Shown: positions 27,435 to 43,337, numbered from the stretch's first letter. The stretch is DNA of 64,000 nt from a virus (IMGVR_UViG_3300029305_005547:214850-278849); one strand, 5' to 3'. Notes: generated from the letters alone by a model not told the origin. Numbers and translations are program-made.

Positions 27435-30400
27435 ATGGGGTATCAAACTATGAGTCCAGTTTTAACTGAAAGTGATGTTTCGATCCTGATGTCGCAAAAG
27501 ACGACTGATGGTCAAACGTTATACTTATATCCCGTTGTTAGAGACGTAGATGTTTTACTCACTGAAGAAAGTGCAGAATATGAGAACCTTGGTGAGATGT
27601 TGGAAGCTGGTGTAAAACCTAATGTCGCATCTTTACAGGCAATCTTTCAGAATAGTGATGACATTGAATTCGAATTTGACGAAGAGACCGGTACAGTTGT
27701 AGGAACACATAAAAATGTCCTTGCAGCAGGTTCTGCTACTGCTACATCTGGTGATGTACAGTATGGTGCAACAATCGAAATTCCTACATTTTCTTTTGAT
27801 AAAAACGGTCATATTACTTCTGTTGGTAAGAGCATTATCACTCTTCCTAACGAATATGTACTTCCTAAGGCTTCTACTGGAAGTCTCGGTGGAATTATTG
27901 TCGGTGACGGATTAAATGTAGATCAGACTGGTTTAGTTTCTGTTAAAGAAGCTACCGAAAGTGAAGCAGGTGCTGTTAAACTTGTTTCTCTCACAAACTC
28001 TGATTCTACTACAGATGCTGCTACGCCTAAGGCTGTAAGTGACGCATTAGCAGCCGCTATCGATCATATTAATAACGAAATATCTAAGATTGACATGGAG
28101 GGTGTAACACCTAATTATGCTGATCTTATGAATATCTTTACAACAAGTGAAGATATGAAATTTACTATGGATGAAATGGCAAGAACTATTGCTGTTACCC
28201 ATAGAAATAGTATTGCATCAGGTGAAGTTATTGGTACTGAAGGTAGTGTAGATGCAGGTTCTGTAATTAAGATTCCAGCATTTTCTATTGATACCAAAGG
28301 ACATGTAACATCACATAGATTAGTGAGCGTATCTTTACCAGCAGCATATACATTACCTACTGCATCAGCTGATGTTAAAGGTGGTATTGTAATAGGTGAC
28401 GGTTTAGAAATTGATCCTACTACAGGTGAAACATCTGTGCGAAAAGGTTCTACATCCGTTGAAGGTATGGTAAAGTTAAGTTCTATTGCGGAGTCTGACT
28501 CTGAAACTGAGGCAGCAACTCCTAAAGCCGTTAAAGACGCTTTAACTGCAGCTAAAGAACATGCAAATCAGGCAGTTGAAAACGTAAAAACTGAACTTAA
28601 TGAAGAAGGTGTTGAAGCTAAGTATTCTTCTGTAGCTGGAAAACTTAATAGCAGTGATGATATTGAGGCTGAAAAAGACGATGCTAATGAAGTAATTAAG
28701 TTCACTCATAAAAATAAAATAGAAGCTGGTGCTGTTGCCAGCGGAGATACATCAATTATTAATGGTGGATCTATTAATATTCCTATTTTTACATATGATT
28801 CTAATGGACATCTTGTAACAGTTGGAACTGAAACAGTTACAATTACTCCATTAGTAGGTGAAAATGGAATTAAAATTGAAAATGAAAAGATAGGTCATAG
28901 TAATAATATTGCAGCAGGTACGACTCCTAAAACTGATACTAAGAAATTAGCTTTTGGCGAAGGATTCAAAGTTCCTGTTGTAACATATGATGCTAATGGT
29001 CATATTACAGCAGTAAGTTATGAAACGATGACATTACCTGATAATATCGATACAACATATACAGGTTCAAACGGTATTGTATTAGACGGTACTGTATTCA
29101 AGCATGGAAATAATGTTACTGCAGGTTCAGTAGTTCCTGGAACTACTGGAGATCTTACATTTGGTGGAACTGTTAAGATTCCTACTTTCAAATATGATGC
29201 TAATGGTCATATCACTGAAGCTGGTATTGTAGAATTTACATTACCTGATAATCCAAATGTAACTTACGAAATTTCTCAAACTTCTGATTCTATTGTGCTT
29301 ACTGGTTCAGACGGAAAATCAACTTCTATTAAGAAGTCTTCTGTTTATACACACCCTATTAGTGGTGTAACCGCAGGTACGTATAGATCAGTAACTGTTG
29401 ATGCGTATGGTCACGTTACAGCTGGTTCTAACCCTACTACTTTAGCAGGTTATGGAATCACTGATGCTGCTAAAAAAGAACATACGCATGGAAATGACGA
29501 TATTACAAGTATTGATGGTAGTAAGATTACTGGAACTGTACCTATTAGTGCTATTCCTGCAGGTGCTTTAGAAAGACTTGTAGAAGTTGCTAGTATAGAT
29601 GCAATGTATGCACTTACAACTGATGATGTTCAGTTAGGTGATACTGTACAAATCGGTGAAGGTGGTCCGATGTATAAAGTAATAGATGTTACTAACCTTG
29701 GTAACTCTAAGGGTTATAAGGTTTATACAGCGGGAGCTGCATCTAGTGTTCCTTGGTCTGGTGTAACTGGAAAACCTGACACATACACACCTTCTGCACA
29801 TACTCATTTATATGCTGGTTCTGCAACAGCAGGTGGTGCAGCAACAAACGCAATTAATGATAATGAGAATCAGAATATTGCGGAAACCTATATTAAAAAT
29901 ATAACCGTAAGTGGAACAACTGTTACGATTACCCGTGGTAATGGAACTTCATTTACAGTTAAAACCCAAGATACAAATACAACTTACTCTGCAATGACTG
30001 GTGCTTCTTCATCTGCAGCTGGTGCTGCTGGACTTGTTCCTGCTCCTGCGGCTGGAAAACAGGCATCATTCTTAAGAGGTGATGGTACTTGGGCTACTCC
30101 TACAGATACTAAGTATACACATCCTACGCATACTGCATATACAAGCGGTCTTTATAAGGTAACTGTCGACGCAAGTGGACATGTTACATCTGCTACTGCA
30201 GTTACGAAAGATGATATTACTGCTTTAGGTATTCCTTCTACGAATACAACTTACTCTGCAATGACTGGCGCTTCTTCATCTGCAGCTGGTGCTGCTGGAC
30301 TTGTTCCTGCTCCTGCGGCTGGAAAGCAAAGTTCATTCTTAAGAGGTGATGGTACTTGGGCTGTTCCTACAGATACTAAGTATACACATCCTAGTTATAC

Positions 30401-31838
30401 TGAACAAGCAACCGGTCTTTATAAAATTACAGTAGATACTACAGGTCATGTTTCTGCAGTTACTGCAGTTACGAAAGATGATATTACTTCTTTAGGTATT
30501 CCTTCTACGAATACAACTTATTCAAACATGACGGCTGCAACATCTTCTGCTGCTGGTAAAGCTGGTTTAGTACCTGCTCCTGCGGCTGGAAAGCAAAGTT
30601 CATTCTTAAGAGGTGATGGTACTTGGGCTGTTCCTACAGATACTAAGTATACACATCCTGCATATACAGCCCAAGCATCCGGTCTTTATAAAATTACCGT
30701 AGATGCTACAGGTCATGTTTCTGCAGTTACTGCAGTTACAAAGGCAGATATTACTGCTTTAGGTATTCCTTCTACGAATACAACTTATTCAGCTGTAACT
30801 GAATCTGCTAATGGTTTAGCTACTTCAGCAATGCTTACGAAATTGAATGCTATTTCTGATAGTGCAGATGCTGTATCATTCACACAGTCATTAACAAGTG
30901 GAACCAAGGTTGGTACCATTAATATTAACGGTGAAGATATTATTCTTTACGCTCCTAAGAATACTGATACACATTTTACATCTCATTTGTATGTAGGTGA
31001 ATCAGGTGGTAATGCTAATGCTACTAGTGCGACAAGTAATCCTTACTTGTTAATGGTAGATAACACTACTCATAGGGATGGTGTACAACTTAAAGCAGGA
31101 TCAAATATGTCTATCAGTGCTGTAAATGGTGTTGTTACTTTCACTGCAACAGATACTAAGTATACACATCCTACGCATACTGCATATACAAGCGGTCTTT
31201 ATAAGGTAACTGTCGACGCAAGTGGACATGTTACATCTGCTACTGCAGTTACGAAAGATGATATTACTGCTTTAGGTATTCCTTCTACGAATACAACTTA
31301 TTCAAACATGACGGCTGCAACATCTTCTGCTGCTGGTAAAGCTGGACTTGTTCCTGCTCCTGCGGCTGGAAAGCAAAGTTCATTCTTAAGAGGTGATGGT
31401 ACTTGGGCTGTTCCTACGAATACAACTTATTCAAACATGACAGCTGCAACTGCAGATGCTGCTGGTAAAGCTGGTTTAGTACCTGCTCCTGCGGCTGGAA
31501 AGCAAAGTTCATTCTTAAGAGGTGATGGTACTTGGGCTGTTCCTACGAATACAACTTATTCAGTATTCGTTAAATCTGGTAGTGGAGCTAAAGCTGGACT
31601 TGTTCCTGCTCCTTCAACAACAGCTGGTACAACGAAATACTTAAGAGAAGATGGAACATGGGTTAAACCGCCTAACACTACTTATAGTGTAGCAACAACA
31701 TCTGCTAACGGTTTAATGTCCTCAGCAATGGTATCTAAAATGGATGGACTTGATAATAATGTCGTTTCTGATACGGCACCTTCAAATCCTTCAACAGGAT
31801 ACACAATGTGGTTCAATGTTTTATCAACTGAGTCATAA
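27435..31838 (+). CDS. Long tail fibre protein (1467 aa)
   Basis: AATPKAV tail-fibre repeats, LPxAS...GGI..GDGL repeats, many DxxGH(V/I)T and AGLVPAP...FLRGDGTW repeats; late promoter at 27386-27397. Confidence 0.85.
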   Translation: MGYQTMSPVLTESDVSILMSQKTTDGQTLYLYPVVRDVDVLLTEESAEYENLGEMLEAGVKPNVASLQAIFQNSDDIEFEFDEETGTVVGTHKNVLAAGSATATSGDVQYGATIEIPTFSFDKNGHITSVGKSIITLPNEYVLPKASTGSLGGIIVGDGLNVDQTGLVSVKEATESEAGAVKLVSLTNSDSTTDAATPKAVSDALAAAIDHINNEISKIDMEGVTPNYADLMNIFTTSEDMKFTMDEMARTIAVTHRNSIASGEVIGTEGSVDAGSVIKIPAFSIDTKGHVTSHRLVSVSLPAAYTLPTASADVKGGIVIGDGLEIDPTTGETSVRKGSTSVEGMVKLSSIAESDSETEAATPKAVKDALTAAKEHANQAVENVKTELNEEGVEAKYSSVAGKLNSSDDIEAEKDDANEVIKFTHKNKIEAGAVASGDTSIINGGSINIPIFTYDSNGHLVTVGTETVTITPLVGENGIKIENEKIGHSNNIAAGTTPKTDTKKLAFGEGFKVPVVTYDANGHITAVSYETMTLPDNIDTTYTGSNGIVLDGTVFKHGNNVTAGSVVPGTTGDLTFGGTVKIPTFKYDANGHITEAGIVEFTLPDNPNVTYEISQTSDSIVLTGSDGKSTSIKKSSVYTHPISGVTAGTYRSVTVDAYGHVTAGSNPTTLAGYGITDAAKKEHTHGNDDITSIDGSKITGTVPISAIPAGALERLVEVASIDAMYALTTDDVQLGDTVQIGEGGPMYKVIDVTNLGNSKGYKVYTAGAASSVPWSGVTGKPDTYTPSAHTHLYAGSATAGGAATNAINDNENQNIAETYIKNITVSGTTVTITRGNGTSFTVKTQDTNTTYSAMTGASSSAAGAAGLVPAPAAGKQASFLRGDGTWATPTDTKYTHPTHTAYTSGLYKVTVDASGHVTSATAVTKDDITALGIPSTNTTYSAMTGASSSAAGAAGLVPAPAAGKQSSFLRGDGTWAVPTDTKYTHPSYTEQATGLYKITVDTTGHVSAVTAVTKDDITSLGIPSTNTTYSNMTAATSSAAGKAGLVPAPAAGKQSSFLRGDGTWAVPTDTKYTHPAYTAQASGLYKITVDATGHVSAVTAVTKADITALGIPSTNTTYSAVTESANGLATSAMLTKLNAISDSADAVSFTQSLTSGTKVGTININGEDIILYAPKNTDTHFTSHLYVGESGGNANATSATSNPYLLMVDNTTHRDGVQLKAGSNMSISAVNGVVTFTATDTKYTHPTHTAYTSGLYKVTVDASGHVTSATAVTKDDITALGIPSTNTTYSNMTAATSSAAGKAGLVPAPAAGKQSSFLRGDGTWAVPTNTTYSNMTAATADAAGKAGLVPAPAAGKQSSFLRGDGTWAVPTNTTYSVFVKSGSGAKAGLVPAPSTTAGTTKYLREDGTWVKPPNTTYSVATTSANGLMSSAMVSKMDGLDNNVVSDTAPSNPSTGYTMWFNVLSTES
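29977..31685 (+). repeat. Near-identical tandem modules in the tail fibre: 3 x 267 bp (A+B), a unique spacer, then B-A-A-A' (A = 129 bp)
   Basis: The ATACAACTTA anchor recurs at 29977, 30244, 30511, 30778 (267-bp period) and at 31291, 31420, 31549 (129-bp period). Confidence 0.9.
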
Positions 31839-33372: not shown

Positions 33373-35826
33373 TTACATAATTATCATTGACAATATTACA
33401 TCACCCTTAGGACACTTAAGCATCTTATCTGCTTTAGCAGCTCTTGTCTTAACAGGAATATCAGAAACATTTAAAGTTTCAGTTCCAGATTTCTTCTTAT
33501 AGAACATAAGCTTTTCATTACCAGATACAGATTTAACCGATACTAAATATTCCTGTGAATCAAGATTAATGAGACATAACGGTTCATCTTTCTTATTCAT
33601 AACAGGGAAATACTGTAATTCGGTTTTCTTTACACGTCCGGATGATGTTACATAAACAAGATACTGATCTTCGGGTCTCATAAGATTAGCACCCATTATC
33701 TTTTCAGCACCCTTAAGAGTTACAAGTCGTGAACCTTTACTTCCAGGAAGTTGTAATTGAATATCAGATACTGGATATCTCACACCATCACCATAATCAG
33801 TAAACATGATAATATCACGGTTTTCATTATCAGTACATAATACAACTTCGAGTTCATCACCATCATTAAGCAAAATAGCTTGTGACGAACCAGACTGTAT
33901 GTCTTTACTTTTAAAGAATGAACTTATAGATACTCGTTTAGCAATACCTTTCGCTGTAATCATTATGAAGAAATAATCTTTCAGATTACTTGCATTCTTA
34001 GGTACAACACTGCATGATACTACTCTACTTCCTTTTGAAAGTTTGATATATTTTGATATATCAAGTCCATTGTTTTTCTCTTTAAGAAGTGGTATAGCTG
34101 ATACTTGTAAGAAGTGCTTAACACCTGCACTATCAAACATAATCAATGTATCAGTATCTTCAGCGGGCATAACCATCATCATTGCAGATGAATCTTTAGA
34201 TACAGAACCGATAGGTTTTCCATCCTGTAATATCTTTTTGATATATCCATCTTCAGTAATTCCAATAATACAAGAATTATTTACAGCTATGGCATTTTCA
34301 TCTTCTACAACAACTGATCTACGACCACGACCATATTTCTTTATACCTTCTTCCATCTCTTTAATAATAACTTTATCAACCTTAGTATCACTATCAATGA
34401 TCTTAGAAAGTTCTTTAATTTCTTCTTCAAGTTTTTCACCTTCATCTTTAAATGCCAAACGTGAATCTTGGTTAAATGATGATGTAGGCATACCAGCAAT
34501 AATCTTTGCCTGTAAACTTGTAATATTATATGCTTTCATCAAAGCTTCACGATATTCATCGATATTCTTTGATTTCTTAGCAATTTCCAATGTTTTTTCA
34601 ATATTATCGTTCTTGCATAAGAATACTTTAATCTTGTTAATATGTTGCTTCTCAAGAAGATTCGATAATCTATTATTGAGTGATGCTCTCACCATATCTC
34701 TTCTGTAATCGATCCAGTTAAGAAGAACATCTCTTACTGAATAATCATCAGATACGAAATCATCAATAAGAATAATACTTGATGCATTGGTCTTTTTAAG
34801 AGATACTTTAGATTTATATAACTTAGCAAGAACTTCATCCGGGTTAACAGAAACTTCTTTTGCTTCTTTACCCTTATCTTTTACATTTATTTTATGATAT
34901 AGAACTATTTCAAGATTAAGACCATCCTGATCTGTCGTTCTATCATTTACTTCTTTAATTTCATCAAAACCACCAGCCAATCTCAAATTATTAATTGCGG
35001 TTATAATCATATTGGTATTAACCTGCATAGGAACTGATGTGAATGTAATGACGTTATTAAGGTAATCAATATTCGCATGAGCTCTCATTTTAATTTTGAC
35101 ATCATTTTCAGCCTTTTCAAATATTTCCTTTGCTTCTTTCTTTGTCATAATGAGATCTGCACCTGTAGGAAGATCTGGATAAATAAGAACTTTAGCCTTA
35201 GGATCTTCAATTAATGCAATAACCGCCTCACAAATTTCAGTGAAATTATACGGAGGTATATTACTCGAAAATCCATAACCAATACTCGAAAATCCTCCGT
35301 TGATTATTGCTACAGGATATTTAGCAGGTAATGTTACTGGTTCATAACTTTCTCCAGTATATGCAAGTCTCATATCTACACTTGAATTTTCAAAATCGCT
35401 AAAGTAACAGTCATATGCAAAGTCACTTATAGCTACGTCTAAATAACGAGGAGCCGCAGCAGCCTCACCACGGATAGATCCATTATTTCCCGGTGTGTAA
35501 ATAAGTGGTACATTATTAGTCCAATCCTGGCTCATACCTATACACACATCTGCTATAGAACTATCACCATGTGGGTGAAATTCGACTGCATTAGATGCAG
35601 CTCTAGATAATTTGAGAAGACGACCTTTATATCGTCCTTCTTTATATAAACCATATAAAACTCTTCGTTCAACAGGTTTTAAACCGTCAATCAAAGATGG
35701 GAAGTAACGGTACAAGTTTTTATTTGCACCGTATATCTTCTGCCATTCTTCAGACTTTTCGGCAATATTAACCTGAATTATAGTTTCACCGAATTTACTC
35801 GGATCAATTTTAGTTGGTGTTGCCAT
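33373..35826 (-). CDS. gyrA: Type IIA topoisomerase subunit A (GyrA/ParC-like)
   Basis: DGLKPVERR, HPHGDSS, catalytic AAPRY, IPPYN, and C-terminal beta-pinwheel repeats. Confidence 0.92.
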   Translation of the reverse strand: MATPTKIDPSKFGETIIQVNIAEKSEEWQKIYGANKNLYRYFPSLIDGLKPVERRVLYGLYKEGRYKGRLLKLSRAASNAVEFHPHGDSSIADVCIGMSQDWTNNVPLIYTPGNNGSIRGEAAAAPRYLDVAISDFAYDCYFSDFENSSVDMRLAYTGESYEPVTLPAKYPVAIINGGFSSIGYGFSSNIPPYNFTEICEAVIALIEDPKAKVLIYPDLPTGADLIMTKKEAKEIFEKAENDVKIKMRAHANIDYLNNVITFTSVPMQVNTNMIITAINNLRLAGGFDEIKEVNDRTTDQDGLNLEIVLYHKINVKDKGKEAKEVSVNPDEVLAKLYKSKVSLKKTNASSIILIDDFVSDDYSVRDVLLNWIDYRRDMVRASLNNRLSNLLEKQHINKIKVFLCKNDNIEKTLEIAKKSKNIDEYREALMKAYNITSLQAKIIAGMPTSSFNQDSRLAFKDEGEKLEEEIKELSKIIDSDTKVDKVIIKEMEEGIKKYGRGRRSVVVEDENAIAVNNSCIIGITEDGYIKKILQDGKPIGSVSKDSSAMMMVMPAEDTDTLIMFDSAGVKHFLQVSAIPLLKEKNNGLDISKYIKLSKGSRVVSCSVVPKNASNLKDYFFIMITAKGIAKRVSISSFFKSKDIQSGSSQAILLNDGDELEVVLCTDNENRDIIMFTDYGDGVRYPVSDIQLQLPGSKGSRLVTLKGAEKIMGANLMRPEDQYLVYVTSSGRVKKTELQYFPVMNKKDEPLCLINLDSQEYLVSVKSVSGNEKLMFYKKKSGTETLNVSDIPVKTRAAKADKMLKCPKGDVILSMIIM

Positions 35827-35847: not shown

Positions 35848-38322
35848 TTAATTATCAAGGTCATCCTGTTTGATTCGATACTCTTCCATCATTTTCTTTC
35901 GAGCATTTTTATCTTTATTTGAAGTTCCATGAAGTTTATCAAATACCTTCAAATCCTTCTTAAGATCTCCAATTGTTAACTGGATAAGTACTCTACTACT
36001 AGGATCAAGAGTTGTTCCATACAAATCTTCAGGAGACATTTCTCCAAGTCCCTTATAACGGGCATCAATGTTAGGAATATACTTACAGTATTTCGTACTA
36101 AATTGTCCAATGGACATTTGATTATAATCACCGTCTTTTTCTTTAACAAGTAGTGCATAACCATATTTACGATATACATCGAACAAATCAACGATCTTAT
36201 TCATAAATCTATGTCCTAAATTAAGGGATGTATAATGACCCTCTGCAATACCGGACATAGTATTAGTATCTTCATAATACTTAATTTCAGGAAACATCAC
36301 CTGAATAGTTGACATAAAATCTGTAAGTATTTTTTGGTCTTTAAACAGATTAGCAACATCTGTGTCTCTGGAAATGCCAGGGAACTTATAAACCAAATAT
36401 GATGCAATTCTTTCAATTAAGAATGCATTGGATTTAAAATGTGCTGCAATTGAAGTAAGTGTGTCTAAATAATCAACTGTATCAAGAAGATATTCTCTGA
36501 ACTCATCTTTCTTAAGACTATTATTTCCAAAAGCAACTACTTTTACATCATAATTCTTAATAACTTTATCTCTGTAAAGGTCTACGTATTCTTCCTTATT
36601 ATGGATAAATACAGACTTCTTTCCATCACTGATTTTGTAAAGAGGGGGTAAAGCTTTATATAACTTACCTGCTTCAACAATACCAGGAAGCGCTGTGATA
36701 AAGAATGCTGACATCGCAGACGAAATTCCATGGCCATCAATATCTGCATCTGTTAAGATAATAATCTTATCAAAATACAGTTTATTGATATCAAAATTCT
36801 TTCCTATTCCACAACGCAAAATGTTAACCAATGTTCTCCATTCTCTATTACCAGAGTTTGGATCCATTAACTGAACTAATGTCTTCTTATAAGGATTAGC
36901 AGTCATACCTCTAACCGCAAAGAATGCCTGAAAATTAGGATTTCTTCTTCTTGTAGCAGAACCCTTAGCAGAATCACCTTCAACGATAAAAATTTCACGA
37001 TAATCGTTCTTACCGGTGTTAAGACATCTGTCATAATTAGGAATTTGCTGTTCCTTTAAAGGAGTCATTGTTTCTTTAGTTGTAGCAACTCTTGCCTTGG
37101 TTGCTTCAACACGAGCACGTGCGTTTGTTTTAATAATCTTTATTACTGCACGTAATTTCTCAGGATTAGAAGAAAAGAAGTTCTCAATTTCTTCTGTAAA
37201 TCCATTATAAAGAATAGGTCTTAAAGTTTCAGCTTTAATCTTTTCCTTTACATTTCCTTCGAACTGAACATTTGCATTCGTGTTAAGGAATACAACCATT
37301 TTAAGTCCAGTTCTAATATCATTCCAAAGAATATCAAGTTTACCTTTTTCATTCTCTGTCATAGAATCTTTTACTGCTTTCTGAATATAGGTACAGAAAG
37401 CCTTTTCTGCTGCATCCATATGAACACCACCGGAAATAGTATTAGTGAAGTTACAATATGAATCATACATAGGATCAATAGAATCGTCGTATGCTAACAT
37501 AAGTCCGTAATTAGCATTTCTGTGTTTAACTACTGTGTCAACATCCTTGGTTCTATCCGTATTAATAACTTCTTCATCAAACTCTTCACTTCTTTCGAAT
37601 GTAATAGGTTTGAGAATAATATTTTGAGAACAGATATCGTACAAAAGACCGATTGGATCTCTTTTCTCAAATACGATATGTTTGATCTCTTTCATTCCTT
37701 CACGAACTGTAAAATCAAGTCTCATGTTATTTGTGAAGAAATAAGAAATTTTTGCAATCCACTCTTCAATTGTATCACAAGGAAGATGTGTATTCGGGCC
37801 AAGATATTTTCTACTAGGAATCATCTTGGTAATCATCCCGTGTTGTTTACCTTTCTTATCTATAGGCTTAACTTCATCAAGCACTTTCTTTCCTTGTCGG
37901 AAAGAAATAGTATGAGCAGTCTTTTCCTTTTCACGATAAGATGTCATAGTAAACTCATCAGACAATGCGTTGCAACAGGTAATACCAATTCCAAATTCAC
38001 CAGCACTACCTTCTCCATCATCACGCATAAATTTTGATCCAGCCTGTATCTTTGTACAACAAATATCAAGAGGATAATCATCTTCAGGAATACCACGACC
38101 GTCGTCCTCTACTATGATTGAATCCTCTAATTTATCAATTATAACACTTATGTTACTACCCTCTGACTTAGGGTTCTTACATTCATCTGTACTATTCTGG
38201 ACAACTTCTTTTGTAAGATGAAATGCACCTTCAGGTCCATAAGACTTAAGGTATAAGTTTGTTTTCATCTGAATTTTTTCAATGTCATCCTCAATGTACA
38301 TCATTTTAGAATCTTGAGCCAT
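35848..38322 (-). CDS. gyrB: Type IIA topoisomerase subunit B (GyrB/ParE-like)
   Basis: GHKL motifs EVVQNSTDE and DDGRGIP; TOPRIM VEGDSA and TDADIDG; RYKGLGEM. Confidence 0.93.
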   Translation of the reverse strand: MAQDSKMMYIEDDIEKIQMKTNLYLKSYGPEGAFHLTKEVVQNSTDECKNPKSEGSNISVIIDKLEDSIIVEDDGRGIPEDDYPLDICCTKIQAGSKFMRDDGEGSAGEFGIGITCCNALSDEFTMTSYREKEKTAHTISFRQGKKVLDEVKPIDKKGKQHGMITKMIPSRKYLGPNTHLPCDTIEEWIAKISYFFTNNMRLDFTVREGMKEIKHIVFEKRDPIGLLYDICSQNIILKPITFERSEEFDEEVINTDRTKDVDTVVKHRNANYGLMLAYDDSIDPMYDSYCNFTNTISGGVHMDAAEKAFCTYIQKAVKDSMTENEKGKLDILWNDIRTGLKMVVFLNTNANVQFEGNVKEKIKAETLRPILYNGFTEEIENFFSSNPEKLRAVIKIIKTNARARVEATKARVATTKETMTPLKEQQIPNYDRCLNTGKNDYREIFIVEGDSAKGSATRRRNPNFQAFFAVRGMTANPYKKTLVQLMDPNSGNREWRTLVNILRCGIGKNFDINKLYFDKIIILTDADIDGHGISSAMSAFFITALPGIVEAGKLYKALPPLYKISDGKKSVFIHNKEEYVDLYRDKVIKNYDVKVVAFGNNSLKKDEFREYLLDTVDYLDTLTSIAAHFKSNAFLIERIASYLVYKFPGISRDTDVANLFKDQKILTDFMSTIQVMFPEIKYYEDTNTMSGIAEGHYTSLNLGHRFMNKIVDLFDVYRKYGYALLVKEKDGDYNQMSIGQFSTKYCKYIPNIDARYKGLGEMSPEDLYGTTLDPSSRVLIQLTIGDLKKDLKVFDKLHGTSNKDKNARKKMMEEYRIKQDDLDN

Positions 38323-38770: not shown

Positions 38771-38904
38771 CAAAAAATGAGATGAATGGTATTATCATTC
38801 ATCTCACATTTAAAGGATCTTAACTGTAGATATGGAAACAAATGGAGAGTGTTGAAACCAACACTCTCCACTATTATTTTCCATTAACCGGAATTTTCAT
38901 TTTA

Positions 38905-39324
38905 TTTCCCATATAAACAGCCATCAGGAAACGAAAGCTGTATGATAGCCAAACCTAAATCGATGGATTTTATAAACAATTAACATCATCACATATAAAA
39001 CTTCACATTTAAGTGGATTTATCCTTCTCGAATTAAATCCTACTAACATGTCACAGCTAAGGTCTTAACATTTGACATTTAACATGTAATCAAATAGCCA
39101 TCACGTATACCTTCAGGGTATGAGCCCGAATTTTGTCTGATGCTATTAGTAGTAATTGAAACCCTCTGTTTCAAAACCACCACTCTTATCATGTTATACA
39201 TGTTAGGATTAACTGTCCTAATGTATATAAACACCAAGCATGTGTTTTATATGGTGATAATAAATACTTTCACGTTTATTATCATTACGTGTCATATATT
39301 ATCGTTATTCGTCTATATAGGAAA
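38905..39324 (-). ncRNA. Structured ncRNA, copy 1 (7-nt repeat array plus tRNA anticodon-arm mimics)
   Basis: Closing stem UUUCCUAUAUAGAC/GUUUAUAUGGGAAA; core homologous to 56900-57273 with compensatory changes; no credible ORF. Confidence 0.75.
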
Positions 39325-39456
39325 GAGTAGGAGATGAAGTTTTGAGGCTCCACCTCCCTGTTTCATTTAATTCTTTTCCTCTATCAGTTGTTCGTTAAGA
39401 AGGAGATATTCGTTTGTTCATTTTCAAACGACAATACCATCTCAGGTATTACGAAA

Positions 39457-42164: not shown

Positions 42165-43337
42165 TTATTTTTTCGTTTTGAACTTGTCAAACAAACCGGA
42201 GATATCGATCTGTTCAGGCTGTCCATTACTAGCACCTGCAGGACGTCTGTAAACTCTCTTTTCCTGAATTCCACTAAGGAGGCTTTCATCAAGTTCCATT
42301 TCATCCTGTTTCTTCTTCTGTGCTTCATTAATTTCATCGATACGATCTTTGATCTTTGCAATACGATCGTTCACAGGAGTCAAACCTGTTGCAATGTAAA
42401 ATACATTGTTAGGGAGTTTTCTTTCAGCATTGATAGATACATGTTCAAATTCCTCAATAGGAGCTCCAATAAGCTTCTGTACCTTAGGAACATGCGTATC
42501 AAATCTTGCCAACATAGATTCGCTAAGATTAGCGATAAGACCTGTTCTGTTAACGATACTGTCAAACTGCATTTCGCAATGAGCATTTTTCTTAAGTTCT
42601 GTAAGCAGCTTATCTTCCAGTGTTTCATCGTCATCACAGTCTTTTTCTTTCACATCCATAAGTGAACCTACTACAATACGACCGGGTGTTGTAACCAAAG
42701 TCATAGCATCACGTTCATCAATGGAATTGAAAGTTGTAGGAGCATTGTAATAACAACGAAGAGCATTAATGTCTTCAACGATTCTCTCATTTACTTTAGT
42801 AAGAGTTTCTACTGTTGACATCTTAGAAAACTTTTCATTGTCATACATCATGTAAGTAGGTGAGTCTGATAACTCATATAATTCAGTAAGATACTGAAGA
42901 GTGTTCGCCTGCGTTGCGAGGGCTTCATTTAATGTAGGTAAAATACCTACAGAAATAGGGAACACAGGTTTCTCATACTTCTGAGAAATCATAGAGATGA
43001 TGTTCGTGAAAAGAACTGACATTCCAGATCCTGTTCCACCACCGGTACTACTTACAACAAATACAATATCCAAACCTCCAAGGAAGGATTTAAACTGATC
43101 GTCTGCTACTACTTCCATAATAGCATTCTGTAAAAAGTTCTTTGCTTCCTCTCTGTTTTTACCTGCACCTTTTCCATCCCCAATGAGGATACGATTCTGA
43201 ACACTTGCAGGTAAAGTATTCATATCGTTTTCGCTACAGTTGAATGCAAATACAGGAATATCAGGATATTTCTTTGTACTTAATGCACATACCTGATTTC
43301 CAGCATTACCGCATCCGATAATTCCTACGTTTAACAT
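42165..43337 (-). CDS. Tubulin/FtsZ-family GTPase (PhuZ/TubZ-like)
   Basis: GCGNAG, GAGKNR, signature GGGTGSG, DNEK, T7-like SIDERD, C-terminal coiled coil and tail. Confidence 0.9.
   Translation of the reverse strand: MLNVGIIGCGNAGNQVCALSTKKYPDIPVFAFNCSENDMNTLPASVQNRILIGDGKGAGKNREEAKNFLQNAIMEVVADDQFKSFLGGLDIVFVVSSTGGGTGSGMSVLFTNIISMISQKYEKPVFPISVGILPTLNEALATQANTLQYLTELYELSDSPTYMMYDNEKFSKMSTVETLTKVNERIVEDINALRCYYNAPTTFNSIDERDAMTLVTTPGRIVVGSLMDVKEKDCDDDETLEDKLLTELKKNAHCEMQFDSIVNRTGLIANLSESMLARFDTHVPKVQKLIGAPIEEFEHVSINAERKLPNNVFYIATGLTPVNDRIAKIKDRIDEINEAQKKKQDEMELDESLLSGIQEKRVYRRPAGASNGQPEQIDISGLFDKFKTKK

What the first reader, a model, noticed from the sequence alone, without database searches (positions are those of the whole stretch)
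39112..39130. Initiator tRNA-fMet-like anticodon arm at the equivalent position of ncRNA copy 1
Seen (minus strand): UUCGGG-CUCAUAC-CCUGAA-GGU closely matches the bacterial initiator tRNA segment UCGGG-CUCAUAA-CCCGA-AGGU, including the GGG run and the start of the variable loop. It is carried on the stem AUAGCAUCA/UGAUGGCUAU just 5' of the repeat array, the same slot that holds the Lys arm in copy 2. Two different anticodon arms in the same slot imply a swappable module.
Basis: partly seen in the sequence, partly recalled or inferred. Interest (0 to 1): 0.8.

Follow-up and report, generated by a model that had tools for sequence, protein, structure and literature searches.

The report
tRNA-like arm in new phage RNA
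The Met-tRNA-like hairpin is real: it is the anticodon-arm-shaped part of a tRNA-like module inside an undescribed, expressed ~400-base structured RNA of gut jumbo phages, but related phages carry other triplets in the same loop, so it is probably not an initiator-tRNA mimic.

Summary
Observation confirmed, interpretation partly supported. On the minus strand, 39130-39112 reads UUCGGG-CUCAUAC-CCUGAA. It matches E. coli initiator tRNA positions 27-43 at 15 of 17 bases. It is the only such site in the 279-kb phage genome (expected 0.007).

The hairpin lies in a 414-nt structured RNA (39321-38908). The genome holds a second copy at 57269-56904. Fourteen sequences from about ten lineages of related gut and cattle jumbo phages hold it, with strong covariation. 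Rfam has no match. Contigs from RNA libraries of two studies coincide with the element.

In orthologues the slot keeps a 5-bp stem and a 7-nt loop of the form CU-NNN-AC. The triplet varies: CAU, UAU, AAU, AAC, AUC, ACA, AGU, and UUU in copy 2. Three lineages also carry a T-arm-like hairpin in that slot; two have the full consensus GGUUCGAAUCC. ARAGORN calls one orthologue a tRNA. Two phages about 98% identical differ mainly in this arm.

My reading: a degenerate, tRNA-derived module whose shape is selected while its "anticodon" is not. CAU is probably a relic. Specific initiator-tRNA mimicry is unlikely, because many of the triplets begin with A, which natural tRNAs almost never do. The function is unknown.

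The scan noted both RNA copies before on this same genome, without follow-up.

The parts
39112..39130 (-). The finding: anticodon-arm-like hairpin (HP-B), UUCGGG-CUCAUAC-CCUGAA. The core 5-bp stem and 7-nt loop are 39129-39113.
   Evidence: Sequence. It forms in the MFE folds. It matches E. coli metY 27-43 at 15/17 and is unique in the genome. The stem is 100% paired in 10 homologues, and all 5 pairs show double changes.
39094..39146 (-). The 'slot': closing helix AUAGCAUCA/UGAUGGCUAU enclosing HP-B. It is the degenerate tRNA-like module of copy 1 and has no T arm here.
   Evidence: Orthologues have an equivalent closing helix of different sequence. In L104/L105 the slot folds as a three-way junction of closing helix, anticodon-like arm and T arm.
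39204..39220 (-). Second 7-nt-loop hairpin (HP-A), UAGGA-CAGUUAA-UCCUA.
   Evidence: The loop CAGUUAA sits on covarying stems in L015, L055, L016, L104 and L101. It is CUUUUAA in L098 and L107, CUUUCAA in L099 and AUUUUAA in L110. The strain variant at 39211 gives CAGUCAA in RNA-library contigs.
38908..39321 (-). Whole structured RNA, copy 1 (414 nt). It is closed by helix P1, 39321-39311 with 38918-38908.
   Evidence: P1 (11 bp) and P6 (5 bp; 38966-38962 with 38925-38921) are 100% paired in 14 sequences, and 11 of 16 pairs show double changes. MFE -111.8 kcal/mol, z = -4.9. Rfam has no match.
38972..39088 (-). Conserved core: six 7-nt UGU units (39088-39043), a central hairpin GGAUUUA...UAAAUCC (39040-39015), and five more units (39012-38972).
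   Evidence: The central hairpin covaries. An nhmmer profile of this core finds every orthologue.
38866..39313 (.). Extent of the contigs from RNA libraries that coincide with the element.
   Evidence: X17 has a 448-nt contig covering 38866-39313 (depth 21.7). X15 has a 440-nt contig covering 38866-39304 (depth 9.8). These are two studies. X16 and X20 give shorter pieces. Contigs cannot show the strand, and DNA carry-over cannot be excluded.
56904..57269 (-). Copy 2 of the RNA (366 nt).
   Evidence: The core is 70% identical to copy 1. RNA-library contigs cover 56897-57229 and 56903-57134.
57115..57131 (-). Lys(UUU)-like anticodon arm of copy 2, CUUGA-CUUUUAA-UCAAG, on the extension helix AUACGC/GCGUAU.
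   Evidence: At 90% of its threshold, ARAGORN folds 57080-57158 as tRNA-Lys(ttt).
57089..57103 (-). T-arm-like hairpin of copy 2, GUGG-UUCGAAU-CCAC.
   Evidence: GGTTCGAATCC occurs once in the 279-kb genome, here (expected 0.04). The same 11-mer lies in the same slot of L104 and L105.
39329..39358 (-). Terminator-like hairpin just upstream of P1. It probably ends the ORF165 transcript and lies outside the RNA-library contigs.
38777..38870 (-). Two terminator-like hairpins downstream of the RNA (38870-38843 and 38807-38777).
   Evidence: The RNA-library contigs stop at 38866, inside the first hairpin.

Best explanation
The hairpin at 39130-39112 (minus strand) is the anticodon-arm remnant of a degenerate, tRNA-derived module. 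The module sits in the variable 5' domain of an undescribed structured RNA of about 370-460 nt, found in a clade of gut and cattle jumbo phages that also carry tubulin and gyrase genes. Shown: the RNA is closed by a terminal helix, has a conserved core of eleven 7-nt UGU units split by a hairpin, occurs twice in this genome, and appears in RNA libraries. Shown: immediately 5' of the core, most members have a closing helix bearing a 5-bp stem with a 7-nt loop of the form C-U-N-N-N-A-C. Three lineages also have a T-arm-like hairpin there, two of them with the full tRNA consensus. Inferred: selection maintains the shape of an anticodon stem-loop, a U-turn-type loop presenting three bases, but not the identity of the triplet. 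CAU plus the UCGGG/CCUGA stem in this window is therefore most simply a relic of descent from a Met or initiator-type tRNA arm, not an active initiator mimic. Inferred with low certainty: the arm works as a shape-specific docking element of the RNA, either for a factor that recognises anticodon-loop geometry or for an RNA-RNA loop contact. It does not decode, because there is no usable acceptor end, no D arm, and most of the triplets begin with A34.
For: The sequence and fold are as described. The arm matches E. coli metY at 15/17 and is unique in the genome, with 0.007 expected. The RNA family is real: P1 and P6 are 100% paired in 14 sequences, 11 of 16 pairs show double changes, and a U.G pair is conserved in 13 of 14, which only works on this strand. 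Whole RNA-library contigs from two studies coincide with the element. The slot hairpin is 100% paired in 10 homologues, with all 5 pairs covarying. Loop columns are C 9/10, U 8/10, A 10/10 and C 9/10, while the middle three vary. tRNA ancestry of the slot: GGUUCGAAUCC occurs only there in the genome (expected 0.04) and at the same place in L104/L105, with a relaxed form in L111. ARAGORN at its default threshold calls L104:3255-3336 a tRNA, with this hairpin as the anticodon arm. At 90% of threshold it does the same for L105, L015 and copy 2. CAU is not conserved: the triplets are UAU, AAU, AAC, AUC, ACA and AGU in the homologous hairpin of other lineages.
Against: The Rfam tRNA model does not score the slot in any member. 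ARAGORN's only default-threshold call is marginal, with a weak D arm and one acceptor mismatch. The acceptor-like pairing is poor in copy 2. I picked the homologous hairpins by eye before counting pairs, which inflates. L101-103, L110, L111 and L120 do not show a clean CU-NNN-AC loop. In L016 the order of the two 7-nt-loop hairpins is inverted, so homology of individual hairpins is not certain everywhere. The ORF165 tree is unresolved, so CAU cannot be shown to be the ancestral state. The contigs give no strand and no RNA ends, and DNA carry-over in the RNA libraries cannot be excluded. No partner or function was tested.
Confidence: 0.6

Rival explanations
1. Arms-race decoy or bait. The tRNA-shaped module presents an anticodon-like loop to host anticodon-loop-directed factors, such as defence nucleases of the PrrC, RloC, VapC, colicin or PARIS type, or modification enzymes. 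Its triplet then changes quickly under diversifying selection. The first reader's fMet/VapC idea is the special case for CAU.
For: The anticodon-loop geometry (C32, U33, A37, C38) is kept while the triplet varies. L104 and L105 are about 98% identical overall but differ at about 9 of 35 positions in this arm, with compensated stems. This phage has no tRNA genes and none of the four RNA-repair or tRNA-related families I searched for: TROVE, RtcB, RNA ligase and CCA-adding enzyme. Many jumbo phages carry such genes against anticodon nucleases (PMC7824862). Copy 2 carries a natural-looking Lys(UUU) arm. From general knowledge, tRNA-Lys is the classic target of PrrC and PARIS.
Against: Four of the triplets (AUC, ACA, AAU, AAC) begin with A34 and match no normal bacterial tRNA, so they would be poor mimics. 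The T arm is dispensable in most lineages. The L104/L105 difference could be a recombination patch. No defence gene or nuclease was linked to the RNA, and nothing was tested biochemically.
Confidence: 0.15
2. RNA-RNA contact loop. The 7-nt loop pairs with another segment of the same RNA, of another copy (multimer), or of a trans RNA. The triplet then varies together with its partner.
For: Six-nucleotide complementarity to the segment just 5' of the central hairpin is seen in L098 (CUUAUA/UAUAAG), L099 (CUAACA/UGUUAG), L106 (one G.U) and L016 (CGAGUA/UAUUCG). In L098 and L016 both sides carry lineage-specific changes. The large phage RNAs GOLLD and ROOL assemble through intermolecular contacts (10.1101/2024.12.08.627333). 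The central hairpin has GNRA-like caps.
Against: The matched-versus-shuffled test gives only p of about 0.05. No such complement exists in window copy 1, L015 or L104. L104 and L105 change the loop without changing that segment.
Confidence: 0.12
3. Chance resemblance. The hairpin is simply a structural stem-loop of the RNA with no tRNA ancestry, and the match to tRNA-fMet is coincidental.
For: The Rfam tRNA model gives nothing. Copy 1 has no T arm, D arm or acceptor. The initiator hallmark of three G-C pairs is not met. 7-nt loops are common, and a reader comparing against about 45 anticodon arms has many chances to find a match.
Against: The arm matches at 15/17 plus AAG, with 0.007 expected genome-wide for one arm. 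Paralogous and orthologous slots carry perfect T-arm consensus sequences, which are otherwise absent from the genome. ARAGORN makes a default-threshold tRNA call in L104.
Confidence: 0.1
4. DNA-level element. The hairpins and heptamer arrays are protein-binding or recombination sites in double- or single-stranded DNA, not an RNA.
For: 7-bp repeat arrays are typical of operator and centromere sites for ribbon-helix-helix proteins (general knowledge). The same genome has other fold-back DNA elements (earlier scan notes).
Against: Conserved G.U pairs would be A.C mismatches on the other strand: U.G in P1 in 13 of 14 sequences, and G.U in the UCGGG/CCUGA stem. Long-range helices covary. RNA-library contigs match the element's limits at higher depth than the neighbouring genes.
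Confidence: 0.03

Closest known systems
GOLLD RNA (and ROOL): large ornate phage and prophage RNAs, with tRNAs sometimes embedded in the GOLLD linker region (10.1101/2024.12.08.627333)
   Same: A phage-encoded, several-hundred-nucleotide, heavily structured RNA of unknown function. It has a conserved 3' part and a variable 5' part that holds tRNA-type sequence.
   Different: Rfam's GOLLD and ROOL models do not match. This RNA is smaller (370-460 nt). Its core is an array of 7-nt UGU units, which is not described for those classes. The embedded element is not an intact tRNA but a degenerate anticodon-arm module, with or without a T arm, and has non-natural triplets.
Bacterial initiator tRNA anticodon arm (E. 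coli metY, L121:2214-2290)
   Same: The arm matches at 15 of 17 bases, including the CAU, UCGGG and CC.GA elements and the following AAG.
   Different: G29.U41 replaces G29-C41, and C38 replaces A38. There is no acceptor stem, D arm or T arm in copy 1. CAU is not kept in orthologues.
Bacterial and phage Y RNA-like RNAs (YrlA) with Ro60/Rsr (general knowledge; the TROVE protein and its tRNA-like partner in jumbo phages are mentioned in PMC7824862)
   Same: The 5' and 3' ends pair into a closing helix, and a tRNA-like module with a T arm lies inside.
   Different: YrlA mimics the T arm, D arm and acceptor, not the anticodon arm. This phage has no TROVE protein. Rfam gives no match. This RNA is much larger.
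Triplet-repeat RNA targets of ring proteins (TRAP: 11 G/UAG triplets; HutP: UAG triplets spaced by 4 nt) - general knowledge, for the neighbouring array only
   Same: Eleven UGU triplets at a 7-nt period lie directly next to the arm.
   Different: The triplet is different. I did not search for a TRAP or HutP homologue, and binding is untested.

Membership tests
Bacterial initiator tRNA (tRNA-fMet) anticodon arm | Anticodon CAU in a 7-nt loop with U33 and A37 | tested here: met
   The loop is CUCAUAC in the window. It aligns with metY.
Bacterial initiator tRNA (tRNA-fMet) anticodon arm | Three consecutive G-C pairs 29-41, 30-40, 31-39 (general knowledge) | tested here: not met
   The window has G31-C39, G30-C40 and G29.U41. 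L015 has G-C, U-A and G-C.
Bacterial initiator tRNA (tRNA-fMet) anticodon arm | Identity conserved among homologues, as expected if the mimicry is functional | tested here: not met
   CAU occurs only in the window clade and the L015/L055/L119 clade. Elsewhere the triplet is UAU, AAU, AAC, AUC, ACA or AGU.
Bacterial initiator tRNA (tRNA-fMet) anticodon arm | C1xA72 mismatch and an acceptor end for formylation | tested here: not met
   Copy 1 has no acceptor stem or CCA end. The closing helix is 9-10 bp of unrelated sequence.
tRNA gene (Rfam RF00005 / ARAGORN cloverleaf) | Cloverleaf with acceptor, D, anticodon and T arms that scores above threshold | tested here: not met
   ARAGORN finds 0 tRNAs in the window and the genome. 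Rfam gives no tRNA hit even at E up to 10. The only default-threshold ARAGORN call is the L104 slot, and it is marginal.
tRNA-like (tRNA-derived) module | T arm with the consensus GG-UUCGAAU-CC next to an anticodon-type arm | tested here: met
   Met in copy 2, L104 and L105, with a relaxed form in L111. Not present in copy 1, the arm of this finding.
GOLLD / ROOL / other Rfam families | Match to the family covariance model | tested here: not met
   No match at gathering thresholds in the window. Only noise at E up to 10.
Y RNA / YrlA-Rsr system | Ro60 (TROVE) partner protein encoded nearby or in the genome | tested here: not met
   PF05731 is absent from the 279-kb genome, and the control genomes were positive.
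Anticodon-nuclease decoy (hypothetical class) | Bound or cleaved by a tRNA-anticodon-directed nuclease | not testable with these tools
   This needs biochemistry or genetics.

The most novel reading that the evidence does not exclude
The module is a tRNA-shaped presenter of a fast-evolving, effectively programmable triplet. It would act as a phage RNA decoy or sponge aimed at host factors that read anticodon loops, such as defence nucleases or particular tRNAs. For example, the NAU/NAC triplets of the UCGGG-stem clade are complementary to the GUN anticodons of His, Tyr and Asn tRNAs. Patch-wise exchange between phages would retarget it. This would be an RNA-based counter-defence or tRNA-capture device with no described precedent.
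Probability: 0.15. Interest if true: 0.85.

Novelty: new variant of a known kind. Interest (0 to 1): 0.6.

Why it matters
Large structured phage RNAs such as GOLLD and ROOL are still without a known function, and their link to tRNAs is unexplained. This is a further such RNA, not in Rfam. It comes from jumbo phages of animal guts, appears in RNA libraries, and has strong covariation. Here the tRNA link takes an unusual form. A degenerate tRNA module has kept its anticodon-loop geometry, but its triplet differs between lineages and even between near-identical phages. That gives a concrete handle for experiments: a 17-nt arm and a three-base variable site. It also gives a comparative test, the rate of change of the triplet against its flanks, for whether phages use tRNA-shaped RNA against host tRNA-directed systems. 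If the arm is only a relic, the finding still defines a new RNA family and its architecture.

Tried and rejected
- Rfam at gathering and at E up to 10 on the window, both copies and four orthologous loci gave no relevant family.
- ARAGORN on the window and the genome found no tRNA. At relaxed thresholds it gives many false calls (29 in the window), so only the default-threshold L104 call carries weight. A run with the wrong option (-ss) gave uninformative folds.
- BLAST of the region against 50,697 phage records found nothing.
- Exact-motif scans of IMG/VR returned only chance hits plus the known relative.
- A gyrB-based scan of IMG/VR and of metagenome contigs gave only 3 + 1 relatives. L056 and L057 were unrelated bacterial DNA.
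- The phrog_12252-based scan gave 38 jumbo-phage loci, but none holds the element beyond the three closest relatives. The copy-2 site is empty in the closest relative (L017).
- Covariance model R1, run on five whole relatives' genomes, found one copy each in G001 and G002. The weak hits in G003 and G004 lie in coding sequence and are not real.
- The motif CTATATRG is not a genome-wide promoter motif.
- The intramolecular partner search for the loop was only marginal, p of about 0.05.
- TROVE, RtcB, RNA ligase and CCA-adding enzyme are absent from the genome.
- The ORF165 tree is unresolved, so no ancestral-state inference is possible.
- Literature searches for a described equivalent found none. 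AcrIIIA1 (PMC11662646) binds host tRNA fragments and is not comparable.
- RNA-library contigs give neither strand nor ends. Parts without cover say nothing.

Full report
**Setting.** The window is the last 64 kb of a 278,849-bp phage contig. Near the finding lie a PhuZ-type tubulin gene (42165-43337, minus) and gyrase/topoisomerase II subunit genes (35848-38322 and 33373-35826, minus), so this is a jumbo phage. Sequencing runs that hold the region are faecal, gut and bovine gut metagenomes. ARAGORN finds no tRNA gene in the whole genome.

**The observation.** On the minus strand, one search shows AAUAGCAUCA-GACAAAA-UUCGGG-CUCAUAC-CCUGAA-GGUAUACG-UGAUGGCUAU, followed by the heptamer array. The coordinates are as stated.
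- The hairpin and its carrier stem form in the minimum-free-energy folds of the slot and of the whole RNA.
- Against a real initiator tRNA gene (E. coli metY), the 17-nt arm matches at 15 of 17 bases, and the next three bases AAG also match.
- No other site in the genome lies within three mismatches. The expectation for two or fewer is 0.007.
- The initiator hallmark of three G-C pairs is not met, because position 29-41 is a G.U pair.

**What the arm is part of.** Two intergenic regions share a conserved unit. Copy 1 lies between a 165-aa ORF and gyrB. Copy 2 lies between a 242-aa ORF and a phrog_12252 gene. There are only two copies in the genome, and Rfam has no match.

I recovered orthologues of copy 1 in three ways: through gyrB in IMG/VR and metagenomes, through homologues of the 165-aa ORF, and through their contigs. 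About 25 loci came back, representing about a dozen lineages (56-99% ORF165 identity). Where flanks are present, all share the tubulin...ORF165-element-gyrB synteny. A profile of the core finds the element in nearly all of them.

The RNA is closed by an 11-bp helix, CCUAUAUAGAC with GUUUAUAUGGG, and has a 5-bp helix P6.
- Both helices are 100% paired in 14 sequences.
- 11 of 16 pairs show double changes, and no shuffle or slid register comes close.
- A U.G pair in P1 is kept in 13 of 14 sequences. The UCGGG/CCUGA stem has a G.U pair. On the other strand these would be A.C mismatches, so the functional strand is the minus strand and the molecule is RNA.
- Copy 1 is 414 nt (39321-38908) and copy 2 is 366 nt (57269-56904). 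Family members are 375-457 nt.

The core holds six 7-nt UGU units, a covarying hairpin and five more units.

**Expression.** In four metatranscriptomic runs from two studies, whole contigs coincide with the element.
- One contig is 448 nt, covers 38866-39313 and has depth 21.7.
- Another is 440 nt, covers 38866-39304 and has depth 9.8.
- Two shorter contigs also map to copy 1, and contigs of 232 and 333 nt map to copy 2.
- Contigs on neighbouring genes have depths of about 2-6.
- Terminator-like hairpins flank the unit.

These are assembled contigs, so they give no strand and no exact ends, and DNA carry-over cannot be excluded. The evidence fits a discrete, fairly abundant RNA but does not prove one.

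**The slot in homologues.** Just 5' of the array, most members have a closing helix of lineage-specific sequence that bears a 5-bp stem and a 7-nt loop.

| Member | Hairpin |
|---|---|
| Window copy 1 (and L113-116) | UCGGG-CUCAUAC-CCUGA |
| L015/L055/L119 | UCGUG-CUCAUAC-CACGA |
| L098 | UCGGG-CUUAUAC-CCUGA |
| L106-109 | UCGGG-CUAAUAC-CCUGA |
| L016 | UCGGG-CGAGUAC-CCUGA |
| L099/100 | UUUGG-CUAACAC-CCAGA |
| L104 | GUAGC-CUAUCAC-GCUAC |
| L105 | GUAGA-CUACAAC-UCUAC |
| L118 | UAGUA-UACCUAC-UACUA |
| Copy 2 | CUUGA-CUUUUAA-UCAAG |

- The stem is paired in all 50 cells, and every pair covaries. I selected these hairpins by eye, which inflates that figure.
- The loop columns are C 9/10, U 8/10, N, N, N, A 10/10 and C 9/10. 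The geometry of an anticodon loop is kept, but the triplet is not.
- L101-103 have a 6-nt loop. L110, L111 and L120 have no clear equivalent.
- In L016 the order of this hairpin and the second 7-nt-loop hairpin is inverted.

**tRNA character of the slot.**
- Copy 2 has GUGG-UUCGAAU-CCAC after its Lys-like arm. GGTTCGAATCC occurs nowhere else in the 279-kb genome (expected 0.04).
- The same 11-mer lies at the same place in L104 and L105, which are syntenic orthologues of copy 1. L111 has a relaxed form.
- ARAGORN at its default threshold calls L104:3255-3336 a tRNA, with this hairpin as the anticodon arm. At 90% of threshold it does the same for L105, L015 and copy 2.
- RNAfold gives a three-way junction of closing helix, extended anticodon-like arm and T arm in L104/L105.
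- The Rfam tRNA model does not score any of them, and the D arm and acceptor are weak.

So these are degenerate tRNA-like modules, not tRNA genes. Copy 1 keeps only the closing helix and the anticodon-like arm.

**Is the module swappable?**
- L104 and L105 encode the identical ORF165 protein and are about 98% identical over 560 nt.
- They differ at about 9 of 35 positions in this arm: the loop is AUC in one and ACA in the other, and two stem pairs are compensated. They also differ at 4 positions in the apical loop of the central hairpin.
- Copy 2's core is closest to copy 1 (70%). Its tRNA-like domain (AACAGAUUU...AAGUUAU...GGUUCGAAUCC) is closest to L104/L105.
- These patterns fit patch-wise exchange or local positive selection. 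Within the UCGGG-stem clade, however, the differences are single substitutions at position 34.

**Why not an initiator mimic.**
- CAU is confined to two clades.
- The same stem carries other triplets.
- Three G-C pairs are lacking.
- C38 replaces A38.
- There is no acceptor.
- AUC, ACA, AAU and AAC start with A34, which bacterial tRNAs essentially do not use (general knowledge), so the family as a whole does not copy natural tRNAs.

The simplest reading is descent from a Met or initiator-type arm, with the shape retained. I could not confirm that CAU is ancestral, because the ORF165 tree is a star.

**Function.** This is inference only. The loop flanks and the stem are under selection, so the arm does something within the RNA. 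I see three candidates:
- a docking site for a factor that recognises anticodon-loop geometry;
- a decoy for tRNA-directed host systems. The phage has no tRNAs and lacks TROVE, RtcB, RNA ligase and CCA-adding enzyme, which many jumbo phages carry against anticodon nucleases (PMC7824862);
- an RNA-RNA contact. The loop is 6-nt complementary to the segment before the central hairpin in four lineages, but the test gives only p of about 0.05.

**Comparison with known systems.** The nearest known analogues are GOLLD and ROOL. Both are large phage RNAs found near tRNAs, and GOLLD sometimes holds tRNAs in its linker. This RNA is not a member of either family. I found no description of it or of an anticodon-arm module with a variable triplet.

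**Verdict.** The 'same slot, variable arm' idea is supported and extended. The fMet-specific reading is not supported. The underlying RNA family is new and of real interest. Its function and that of the arm are open.

Noticed in passing
window 38972-39088 and 56972-57082 (minus strand): Eleven 7-nt units, each with UGU (6 + hairpin + 5), form the conserved core of the RNA in all orthologues. RNAalifold pairs the two half-arrays with each other through many G.U pairs, because AUGU is self-complementary. The alternative is a periodic binding site for a protein, as for TRAP or HutP.
   Followed up: partly
window 39204-39220 (minus); L098:3247-3261; L107:3229-3243; L099:3265-3279: A second hairpin with a 7-nt anticodon-like loop (HP-A) has the loop CAGUUAA in six lineages, on covarying stems. 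The loop is CUUUUAA in L098 and L107, CUUUCAA in L099 and AUUUUAA in L110. A strain variant at 39211 gives CAGUCAA in RNA-library contigs.
   Followed up: partly
L104 and L105: Two phages about 98% identical differ almost only in the anticodon-like arm and in the apical loop of the central hairpin. These are local hypervariable patches.
   Followed up: partly
L118:1727-2036; L104:4629-5480; L106:4600-5463: The gyrB gene downstream of the element is interrupted in relatives. L118 has a group I intron (Rfam RF00028, 95 bits). L104 and L106 have HNH_3 endonuclease ORFs that split gyrB.
   Followed up: no
whole genome G000: This 279-kb jumbo phage has no tRNA gene and no TROVE, RtcB, RNA ligase or CCA-adding enzyme.
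   Followed up: yes
window 39329-39358 (minus): A conserved hairpin lies just upstream of the RNA's closing helix. Its loop is CCUCAAAA here and GUCACAGC in relatives. It is terminator-like and lies outside the RNA-library contigs.
   Followed up: no
window 39015-39040 (minus) and orthologues: The central hairpin is capped by GNRA-type tetraloops (GUGA in L101 and L118) or by GAGAA/GAGGA pentaloops. This suggests a tertiary contact.
   Followed up: no
window 29829-31711: Tandem repeats of 267 and 129 nt lie inside the 1467-aa ORF at 27435-31838, so this is a repetitive protein.
   Followed up: no
L017:3500-4000: The closest complete relative (G001, 275 kb) has one copy of the RNA only. The site of copy 2 holds unrelated sequence there, so copy 2 is specific to the window's lineage.
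   Followed up: yes
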